This document shows positions 1-760 of a stretch of DNA of 760 nt, piece after piece; position 1 is the stretch's first letter, and each line of letters begins with the position of its first letter. Source of the stretch: Escherichia coli (GTDB lineage Bacteria; Pseudomonadota; Gammaproteobacteria; Enterobacterales; Enterobacteriaceae); NCBI RefSeq assembly GCF_003334355.1, contig NZ_QOWP01000103.1. The stretch is one strand, 5' to 3'. Both the position numbers and the translations under genes were made by a program. The notes beneath the pieces are model-generated. The model saw only the letters and a program-made list of their open reading frames with translations, had not been told where the DNA came from and made no database searches.

Positions 1-760
1 GTGGTGTCAGCGGCGGACAAGGATAAGCACGCGTCAGCAGTTCCGCCAACACTGCGACAGCGTTGTCCTCGCGGCTTTTACCCGGTCAAAACAGCGTTAC
101 GGTGCCCCACGCCTGACGGATGAACTGCGTGCTCAGGGTTACCCCTTTAACGTAAAAACCGTGGCGGCAAGCCTGCGCCGTCAGGGACTGAGGGCAAAGG
201 CCTCCCGGAAGTTCAGCCCGGTCAGCTACCGCGCACACGGCCTGCCTGTGTCAGAAAATCTGTTGGAGCAGGATTTTTACGCCAGTGGCCCGAACCAGAA
301 GTGGGCAGGAGACATCACGTACTTACGTACAGATGAAGGCTGGCTGTATCTGGCAGTGGTCATTGACCTGTGGTCACGTGCCGTTATTGGCTGGTCAATG
401 TCGCCACGCATGACGGCGCAACTGGCCTGCGATGCCCTGCAGATGGCGCTGTGGCGGCGTAAGAGGCCCCGGAACGTTATCGTTCACACGGACCGTGGAG
501 GCCAGTACTGTTCAGCAGATTATCAGGCGCAACTGAAGCGGCATAATCTGCGTGGAAGTATGAGCGCAAAAGGTTGCTGCTACGATAATGCCTGCGTGGA
601 AAGCTTCTTTCATTCGCTGAAAGTGGAATGTATCCATGGAGAACACTTTATCAGCCGGGAAATAATGCGGGCAACGGTGTTTAATTATATCGAATGTGAT
701 TACAATCGGTGGCGGCGGCACAGTTGGTGTGGCGGCCTCAGTCCGGAACAATTTGAAAAC
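1..760 (+). CDS. insF: IS3-family transposase orfB (InsF-like DDE integrase/transposase), internal fragment truncated at both window edges; codon phase begins at base 2
   Basis: Seen in sequence: frame +2 (codons 2-4 ... 758-760) is open for all 253 codons. The translation has an HTH-like segment ([31 protein letters not shown], about 98..190) followed by an integrase core with catalytic D (AGDITY, 311..313), D (HTDRGG, 491..493) and E (CVESFF, 599..601), with K at +7 from E (620..622), and the conserved IS3 C-terminal motif [26 protein letters not shown]. Established knowledge: this matches my recollection of E. coli IS3 InsF almost residue for residue, corresponding to roughly residues 32-284 of the ~288 aa protein. 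The supplied ORF track does not list it, presumably because no start or stop falls inside the window. Confidence 0.95.
1..760 (+). mobile_element. Interior of an IS3-family insertion sequence (IS3-like); neither terminus is in the window
   Basis: Inference from the CDS identity: the window is wholly coding for the IS3 orfB transposase. No terminal inverted repeats, target-site duplications or flanking host sequence are visible, so orientation is known (+) but the element's boundaries and insertion context are not. Confidence 0.9.

What the first reader, a model, noticed from the sequence alone, without database searches (positions are those of the whole stretch)
311..622. Intact DD(35)E-K catalytic core suggests a potentially functional transposase copy
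The three catalytic residues are all present in frame: D at 311..313, D at 491..493 (60 codons downstream) and E at 599..601 (36 codons after the second D). The conserved basic residue K lies 7 codons after E at 620..622. No stop codon or frame disruption occurs anywhere in the 253 codons visible. This is what an active, probably recently transposed IS3 copy looks like, rather than a decayed relic. It is an ordinary finding, not a novel one.
Basis: partly seen in the sequence, partly recalled or inferred. Interest (0 to 1): 0.25.

Follow-up and report, generated by a model that had tools for sequence, protein, structure and literature searches.

The report
Ordinary E. coli IS3 transposase core
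The window is an internal piece of the well-known Escherichia coli insertion sequence IS3. It encodes the transposase catalytic domain with every catalytic residue intact, which is an ordinary finding, and it cannot show whether this particular copy can still move.

Summary
Frame +2 is open for all 253 codons, with D (311-313), D (491-493), E (599-601) and K (620-622) in frame at offsets of 60, 36 and 7 codons.

These residues are the catalytic ones, not chance acidic residues:
- In 95 relatives that are 37-57% identical, the D, D and E columns are invariant and K is kept in 93 of 95.
- A confident AlphaFold2 model (pLDDT 94.7) puts them on strand 1, just after strand 4 and on helix 4 of a retroviral-integrase-like fold.

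The window is 100% identical to positions 454-1213 of the 1258-bp IS3. It matches the F plasmid copy and copies in thousands of E. coli genomes. It encodes OrfB residues 32-284, which are OrfAB residues 131-383.

The step from an intact core to a functional, recently moved copy cannot be tested. orfA, the A_AAG frameshift site and both inverted repeats lie outside the window. One genome (NZ_CP116100.1) carries a copy whose window region is 100% identical but whose orfA is broken by a 1-nt deletion.

Verdict: already known, low interest.

The parts
2..760 (+). Partial orfB (insF) reading frame of IS3, cut at both window ends. It covers OrfB codons 32-284 of 288, which are OrfAB fusion residues 131-383 of 387.
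   Evidence: Open for 253 codons. 100% identical to L001:2001-2760, inside a CDS annotated 'IS3-like element IS3 family transposase, programmed frameshift'. NCBIfam transpos_IS3 scores 302 bits against a cut-off of 160. In an 81%-identical relative, 75 of 97 substitutions fall at codon position 3.
65..214 (+). HTH_21 (HTH-like) domain that precedes the catalytic core, window residues 22-71.
   Evidence: Pfam PF13276, E = 5e-12. Three helices at residues 10-28, 35-44 and 51-60 in the AlphaFold2 model.
284..574 (+). Integrase core domain (rve), window residues 95-191: strands 1-5 and helices 1-3 of the RNase H-like fold.
   Evidence: Pfam PF00665, E = 1e-27. Model secondary structure. Foldseek matches to retroviral integrases, TnsB and IstA, E about 1e-9.
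311..313 (+). First catalytic Asp: window residue 104, OrfB D135, OrfAB D234.
   Evidence: GAC in frame. Invariant in 95 of 95 relatives. Lies in model strand 100-110. Aligns with the GDIT Asp of deltaretroviral integrase 7ouf.
491..493 (+). Second catalytic Asp: window residue 164, OrfB D195, OrfAB D294.
   Evidence: GAC in frame. Invariant in 95 of 95. Lies directly after model strand 160-163. Aligns with the T-D-N-G Asp of integrase 7ouf.
599..601 (+). Catalytic Glu: window residue 200, OrfB E231, OrfAB E330.
   Evidence: GAA in frame. Invariant in 95 of 95, with an offset of 36 from the second D in 94 of 95. Lies in model helix 193-211.
620..622 (+). Conserved Lys seven residues after the Glu: window residue 207, OrfB K238, OrfAB K337.
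   Evidence: AAA in frame. K in 93 of 95 relatives, with an offset of 7 in 95 of 95. Lies in the same helix as E200.
599..760 (+). C-terminal part of the catalytic domain (rve_2), window residues 200-253.
   Evidence: Pfam PF13333, E = 5e-19.

Best explanation
The window is nucleotides 454-1213 of the 1258-bp Escherichia coli insertion sequence IS3, the IS3 subgroup of the IS3 family.

Shown here: its frame +2 encodes most of OrfB (InsF), the C-terminal catalytic part of the OrfAB transposase. This part holds an HTH-like domain followed by an RNase H-like, integrase-type core. The core carries the D-D-(35)-E triad and the family-typical Lys seven residues after the Glu, all intact.

Inferred from established knowledge of the IS3 family, not from this window:
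- In a complete element, ribosomes translating orfA slip by -1 at A_AAG, helped by a downstream pseudoknot. This makes the OrfAB fusion.
- OrfAB binds the 39-bp terminal inverted repeats (TG...CA).
- The DDE triad coordinates divalent metal ions. It cleaves one strand at one end and joins it near the other end, giving a figure-of-eight.
- The figure-of-eight is resolved into a minicircle, which is then inserted into a target (copy-out, paste-in).
- OrfA and OrfB made on their own act as inhibitors.

Whether the particular copy sampled here is mobile depends on sequence outside the window.
For: Identity:
- 100% over 760 nt to many E. coli records annotated as the IS3 transposase. 4296 of 5426 complete E. 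coli genomes have a match.
- 100% to the F plasmid NC_002483.1 at 454-1213.
- The window maps to 454-1213 of the 1258-bp element, which is bounded by 39-nt inverted repeats in L001.

Family:
- NCBIfam transpos_IS3 scores 302 bits against a cut-off of 160.
- Pfam HTH_21, rve and rve_2 all match.

Catalytic residues:
- In frame.
- Invariant or nearly so, at fixed spacing, in 95 diverse relatives.
- In the AlphaFold2 model (pLDDT 94.7) they sit on strand 1, just after strand 4 and on helix 4.
- The closest solved folds are retroviral integrases, TnsB and IstA.
- Sequence alignment to integrase 7ouf matches the two Asp motifs.

Coding constraint: 75 of 97 substitutions against an 81%-identical relative are at codon position 3.

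Whole-element anatomy in a copy that is identical across the window (L001):
- orfA of 99 codons and CCUCCA-AAAG-GCCGC, the motif published for IS3 (PMC4066793).
- An annotated programmed frameshift.

Mechanism from the literature: PMC3219604 (figure-of-eight, minicircle, and the placement of D, D and E on strand 1, strand 4 and helix 4); PMC5771124 (OrfA and OrfB inhibit); PMC10379815 (IS3 insertions accumulating in plasmids of E. coli W3110).
Against: Nothing argues against the identification. Several things limit the claim that the copy is functional:
- orfA, the frameshift site, both inverted repeats and the last four codons are not in the window.
- A copy exists with a perfect window region but a dead orfA (L003).
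- Copies split by IS1 exist (L004).
- No experiment on this copy is available.
- No solved structure of an IS3-family transposase turned up, by sequence or by fold. The placement of the residues in the active site therefore rests on a predicted model and on homology.
Confidence: 0.96

Rival explanations
1. The window comes from an IS3 copy that cannot move on its own, even though its catalytic core is perfect. The defect would lie outside the window: a broken orfA, a broken frameshift site, a missing end, or an insertion elsewhere in the element.
For: L003 (NZ_CP116100.1) has a window region that is 100% identical. Its orfA has lost one A from an A-run, which gives a stop at codon 24, and it carries a diverged mosaic patch at IS3 positions of roughly 205-315. 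PGAP marks its CDS 'frameshifted'. Partial matches to the element are also common: the spread list includes places that cover only 3-33% of the element.
Against: Most records hold full-length copies. At least 80% of the 1258-bp element is covered in 4519 of 5872 matching records, and 4084 records are at least 99% identical. Of the 20 listed records with perfect window matches, 16 carry only the 'IS3-like element IS3 family transposase' annotation under the match. That is a rough indication only, because the table does not show pseudogene flags.
Confidence: 0.2
2. The window belongs to a different IS3-family element, an IS3-like relative such as ISEc16 or another subgroup member, and not to IS3 itself.
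For: Related elements at 80-90% identity occur in E. coli: 625 records in that band, with examples (H43, H44).
Against: The window is 100% identical over all 760 nt to canonical IS3 in the F plasmid and in many chromosomes. The relatives differ by about 15-20%.
Confidence: 0.01
3. The open frame and the D/D/E/K residues are a chance pattern in non-coding or otherwise-coding DNA.
For: None, beyond the fact that D, E and K are common residues.
Against: None of 20,000 shuffles left the frame open. Pfam and NCBIfam E-values run from 1e-27 to 5e-90. The columns are invariant. Substitutions are biased toward the third codon position.
Confidence: 0

Closest known systems
Insertion sequence IS3 of Escherichia coli (insE/insF; the IS3A-E copies of K-12 and the IS3 copies on the F plasmid)
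   Same: The nucleotide sequence is 100% identical over the whole window. The reading frame, domains and catalytic residues are the same. The window maps to element positions 454-1213.
   Different: Nothing detectable differs. Only the identity of the particular copy, its host replicon and its flanks are unknown.
Other IS3-family transposases (IS2, IS911, IS150, ISSau2)
   Same: All have an OrfAB architecture with a C-terminal DDE core. IS2 has D240/D306/E342, which gives a D-E offset of 36 (PMC3219604). ISSau2 has 60 and 35 residues between the triad members and a Lys after the Glu (PMC5771124). The window has offsets of 60, 36 and 7.
   Different: They belong to different subgroups. The 94 relatives aligned here, anonymous metagenome and genome proteins, are 37-57% identical at protein level. 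The named elements themselves were not aligned. The D-D spacing varies from 59 to 77 among those relatives. Frameshift motifs and stimulators differ between elements (PMC4066793).
Retroviral integrase catalytic core (STLV/HTLV, RSV, HIV-1)
   Same: The RNase H-like fold is the same, with D on strand 1, D after strand 4 and E on helix 4, and with the same 35-residue D-E spacing class. Foldseek gives E about 1e-9. phmmer aligns the GDIT and TD(R/N)G motifs.
   Different: Only 12-21% of aligned residues are identical. Integrases have a zinc-binding N-terminal domain and an SH3-like C-terminal domain, where IS3 has the OrfA-derived HTH and leucine zipper. The biology also differs: integration of viral DNA versus copy-out, paste-in transposition.

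Membership tests
IS3 (the element itself) | Near-identical nucleotide sequence to the reference IS3. From my own knowledge, the ISfinder convention is that isoforms of one IS share more than about 95% DNA identity. | tested here: met
   100% identity over 760 of 760 nt to the F plasmid IS3 (NC_002483.1, 454-1213) and to many E. coli copies annotated 'IS3-like element IS3 family transposase'.
IS3 family | The transposase matches the curated IS3-family model above its cut-off. | tested here: met
   NCBIfam NF033516 transpos_IS3 scores 302.3 bits against a cut-off of 160, E = 5e-90. The next-best models, IS481 and IS6, fall below their cut-offs.
IS3 family | A DD(35)E catalytic triad with a conserved K/R seven residues after the E. 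| tested here: met
   D104, D164, E200 and K207 are in frame. The D, D and E columns are invariant in 95 of 95 relatives and K is kept in 93 of 95. The offsets are 36 and 7.
IS3 family | [quoted passage not shown] | not testable with these tools
   orfA and the slippery site lie upstream of window position 1. In L001, a copy identical across the window, orfA (99 codons), CCTCCA-AAAG-GCCGC and the ATGA overlap are intact, and the motif matches PMC4066793. In L003, also identical across the window, orfA is broken.
IS3 family | Imperfect terminal inverted repeats that begin 5'-TG and end CA-3'. | not testable with these tools
   Both ends are outside the window. In L001 the arms are 39 nt, 72% complementary, and read TGATC...GATCA at L001:1548-1586 and 2767-2805.
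IS3 family | A short (3-5 bp) target-site duplication flanking the element. | not testable with these tools
   The flanks are not in the window. In L001 the flanking triplets are CAC and AAA, so there is no duplication at that ycdU-dgcT locus copy.
Retroviral integrase / DDE transposase superfamily (RNase H-like fold) | A mixed five-stranded sheet with flanking helices, with the first D on strand 1, the second D at the end of strand 4 and the E on helix 4. | tested here: met
   In the AlphaFold2 model (pLDDT 94.7, pTM 0.88) the strands are at 100-110, 113-122, 127-134, 160-163 and 184-187, and helix 193-211 holds E200 and K207. The best Foldseek hits are integrase intasomes, TnsB and IstA, with probability 1.00. 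This rests on a predicted structure, not a solved one. The placement rule is taken from PMC3219604.

The most novel reading that the evidence does not exclude
The most novel reading that the evidence does not exclude concerns context. This perfectly conserved IS3 core might sit in an unusual setting, for example a copy newly arrived in a non-Escherichia host or replicon. Identical copies were seen on Citrobacter, Klebsiella, Salmonella and Pseudomonas plasmids. It might also be part of a composite transposon or a mosaic element like the one in L003. Nothing in the window itself points to any of these.
Probability: 0.03. Interest if true: 0.15.

Novelty: already known. Interest (0 to 1): 0.05.

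Why it matters
It matters little as a discovery. IS3 is a textbook insertion sequence and its DDE core has long been recognised.

It does have practical value for annotation. The window should be labelled as an internal fragment of IS3 insF/orfB (element positions 454-1213).

It also gives a caution for scanning pipelines. For IS3, an intact catalytic window is the default state, since most copies are at least 99% identical. It does not separate mobile copies from disabled ones. Copies with a perfect core but a broken orfA, or split by IS1, do exist.

Tried and rejected
- An Rfam scan of the window at E up to 1 found no RNA family.
- The generic promoter and terminator scan gave two weak sigma-70-like matches inside the coding frame (520-547 and 637-666) and no terminator. 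I do not treat these as features.
- The longest alternative ORF is 79 aa on the minus strand (512-751, TTG start). I treated it as a by-product of the coding strand. All five other frames carry 6-15 stops, and I did not search it separately.
- A sequence search of the PDB gave only a marginal integrase hit (E = 0.006), and no solved IS3-family transposase surfaced. I therefore used a predicted structure and fold search instead.
- I tried to read the Siguier et al. 2014 review (PMC7190074) for the formal family definition, but it is not held. I used PMC3219604, PMC5771124 and PMC4066793 instead.
- I considered estimating the fraction of window-identical copies that are fully intact. The search tables give per-record figures, not per-place figures, and do not show pseudogene flags, so I give only rough indications.
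- The idea that the window is an IS3-like relative, not IS3 itself, is rejected by the 100% identity.

Full report
**Observation.** I read the 760-nt window and translated frame +2, positions 2-760. It is open for all 253 codons. The other five frames carry 6-15 stops, and none of 20,000 base shuffles left this frame open.
- GAC 311-313 = D104, in KWAGDITYL
- GAC 491-493 = D164, in IVHTDRGGQ
- GAA 599-601 = E200, in NACVESFFH
- AAA 620-622 = K207, in FHSLKVECI

The offsets are 60, 36 and 7 codons. [quoted passage not shown]

**Are these the catalytic residues?** A 253-residue protein contains many acidic residues, so presence alone proves nothing. I ran four tests.
1. Domain models. Pfam finds HTH_21 (residues 22-71), rve (95-191, E = 1e-27) and rve_2 (200-253). 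NCBIfam transpos_IS3 scores 302 bits against a curated cut-off of 160, while the IS481 and IS6 models fall below theirs.
2. Conservation. A search of 1.84 billion cluster representatives gave 22,865 relatives at E up to 1e-10. I aligned the window protein with 94 near-full-length relatives that are 37-57% identical to it. D104, D164 and E200 are invariant in 95 of 95, and K207 is K in 93 of 95. The D-E offset is 36 in 94 of 95, the E-K offset is 7 in 95 of 95, and the D-D offset is 60 in 81 of 95, with a range of 59-77.
3. Structure. An AlphaFold2 model built on that alignment is confident (mean pLDDT 94.7, pTM 0.88). D104 lies in the first core strand (100-110), D164 directly follows the fourth strand (160-163), and E200 and K207 lie in helix 193-211. 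PMC3219604 describes this same placement for the retroviral integrase superfamily, with the aspartates on strands 1 and 4 and the glutamate on helix 4. Foldseek against the PDB returns retroviral integrase intasomes (STLV, RSV, MMTV, HIV-1, PFV) and the transposases TnsB and IstA, at E about 1e-9 and probability 1.00.
4. Direct sequence alignment. A phmmer alignment to the deltaretroviral integrase 7ouf lines up GDIT and TD(R/N)G.

The catalytic assignment is therefore well supported. It rests on homology and a predicted model, not on an experiment with this protein.

**What the window is.** Megablast against 5,426 complete E. coli genomes finds the window in 4,296 of them. There are 15,188 places in all, the best place is at least 99% identical in 4,209 of 5,153 records, and many records are 100% identical over all 760 nt and annotated 'IS3-like element IS3 family transposase'. 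It is also 100% identical to the F plasmid (NC_002483.1, 454-1213) and occurs on plasmids of Shigella, Klebsiella, Salmonella, Citrobacter and others.

In one identical copy (L001, NZ_CP025916.1) the element is 1258 bp long. It is bounded by 39-nt imperfect inverted repeats, TGATC...GATCA. The window maps to element positions 454-1213. By arithmetic on the L001 coordinates, window residue n is OrfB (InsF) residue n+31 and OrfAB residue n+130. The triad is therefore OrfAB D234/D294/E330, with K337. The OrfAB numbering is derived.

**What lies outside the window.** In L001 these parts are all intact, and PGAP annotates a programmed frameshift there:
- orfA, 99 codons
- the slippery tetramer in the context CCTCCA-AAAG-GCCGC, which is exactly the IS3 frameshift window published in PMC4066793
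- the ATGA overlap between the orfA stop and the orfB start
- the last four codons, KNLA

None of these, and neither inverted repeat, is in the window.

**Does an intact core imply a functional copy?** Three related loci serve as controls.
- L003 (NZ_CP116100.1). Its window region is 100% identical to ours, yet the element as a whole is 96.1% identical and annotated 'frameshifted'. The left part has lost one A from the A-run at orfA codons 9-10, which gives a stop at codon 24. It also has a diverged patch at element positions of roughly 205-315 that looks like a mosaic with a related element. This copy cannot make OrfAB in the normal way despite a perfect DDE-K window.
- L004 (NZ_CM129885.1, with two further genomes). 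This is an IS3 split by a 768-bp IS1 with a 9-bp duplication, GACATCACG, equal to window 311-319. The duplication starts at the first catalytic Asp codon. Our window is contiguous, so it is not that copy.
- L002. This is an 81%-identical relative annotated as frameshifted. It keeps D, D, E and K, and 75 of its 97 substitutions fall at codon position 3, the signature of past purifying selection on this frame.

Nearly all IS3 copies in E. coli are at least 99% identical. Identity to the consensus is therefore the default state of this element and not specific evidence of recent movement. My estimate is that the sampled copy is more likely than not complete, because most records hold full-length copies. 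That is an inference from population numbers, and I put the chance of a defect outside the window at about 0.2.

**Mechanism.** This comes from the literature on the family and is not shown here.
- OrfAB is produced by a -1 ribosomal frameshift at A_AAG, stimulated by a pseudoknot (PMC4066793).
- OrfAB binds the inverted repeats. The DDE site cleaves one strand at one end and joins it near the other end, forming a figure-of-eight. This becomes a double-stranded minicircle that is then inserted (PMC3219604; described as copy-out, paste-in in PMC10379815).
- OrfA and OrfB made on their own inhibit transposition in the IS3 subgroup (PMC5771124, citing Sekine et al.).
- IS3 insertions accumulate in plasmids of E. 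coli W3110 under metabolic stress, so canonical IS3 is active in vivo (PMC10379815).

**Comparison and novelty.** This is IS3 itself, not a relative. It meets every family criterion that can be tested inside the window. The criteria that need flanking sequence are met in at least one copy that is identical across the window, and orfA is disrupted in another.

**Other checks.** An Rfam scan found nothing. A generic promoter and terminator scan gave only two weak internal matches. The 3' part of the window contains the hexamer pairs that a 2025 study discusses as possible outward-directed promoters in the right end of IS3. I record this in passing.

Noticed in passing
window 680-706 and 724-754 (+ strand): Two promoter-like hexamer pairs lie inside the orfB coding region near the right end of IS3: TTTAAT (680-685), 15 nt, TACAAT (701-706); and TTGGTG (724-729), 19 nt, CAATTT (749-754). 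PMC12095673 discusses these same hexamers as possible outward-directed promoters in the right 150 bp of IS3 (its '3R(+)'), held back by a downstream pausing site. The generic scan did not pick them up.
   Followed up: partly
L003:301-1557 (NZ_CP116100.1): This IS3 copy is 100% identical to the window across the window region. Its orfA has a 1-nt deletion in the A-run, which gives a stop at codon 24. It also has a diverged patch at element positions of roughly 205-315 that looks like recombination with a related IS3-family element.
   Followed up: partly
L004:1201-2737 (NZ_CM129885.1; also NZ_CP097430.1 and NZ_CP097426.1): An IS3 at the ycdU-dgcT locus is interrupted by a 768-bp IS1 with a 9-bp target duplication, GACATCACG, equal to window 311-319. 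The IS1 duplication starts at the first catalytic Asp codon of the IS3 transposase.
   Followed up: partly
L001:1545-1547 and 2806-2808 (NZ_CP025916.1): The full-length IS3 between ycdU and dgcT is flanked by CAC and AAA, so it has no 3-bp target duplication. The neighbouring genes are annotated as a truncated ACP S-malonyltransferase and a frameshifted dgcT. This suggests an IS-associated deletion or rearrangement at that locus.
   Followed up: no
whole window protein (residues 1-253): No experimentally solved structure of an IS3-family transposase turned up in the PDB, either by sequence (best hit an integrase at E = 0.006) or by fold (top hits are integrases, TnsB and IstA at 11-21% identity). 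The AlphaFold2 model is nevertheless very confident (pLDDT 94.7).
   Followed up: no
window 512-751 (- strand): The longest ORF outside the transposase frame is 79 aa with a TTG start, antisense to orfB. It is probably a chance by-product of the coding strand and was not searched separately.
   Followed up: no
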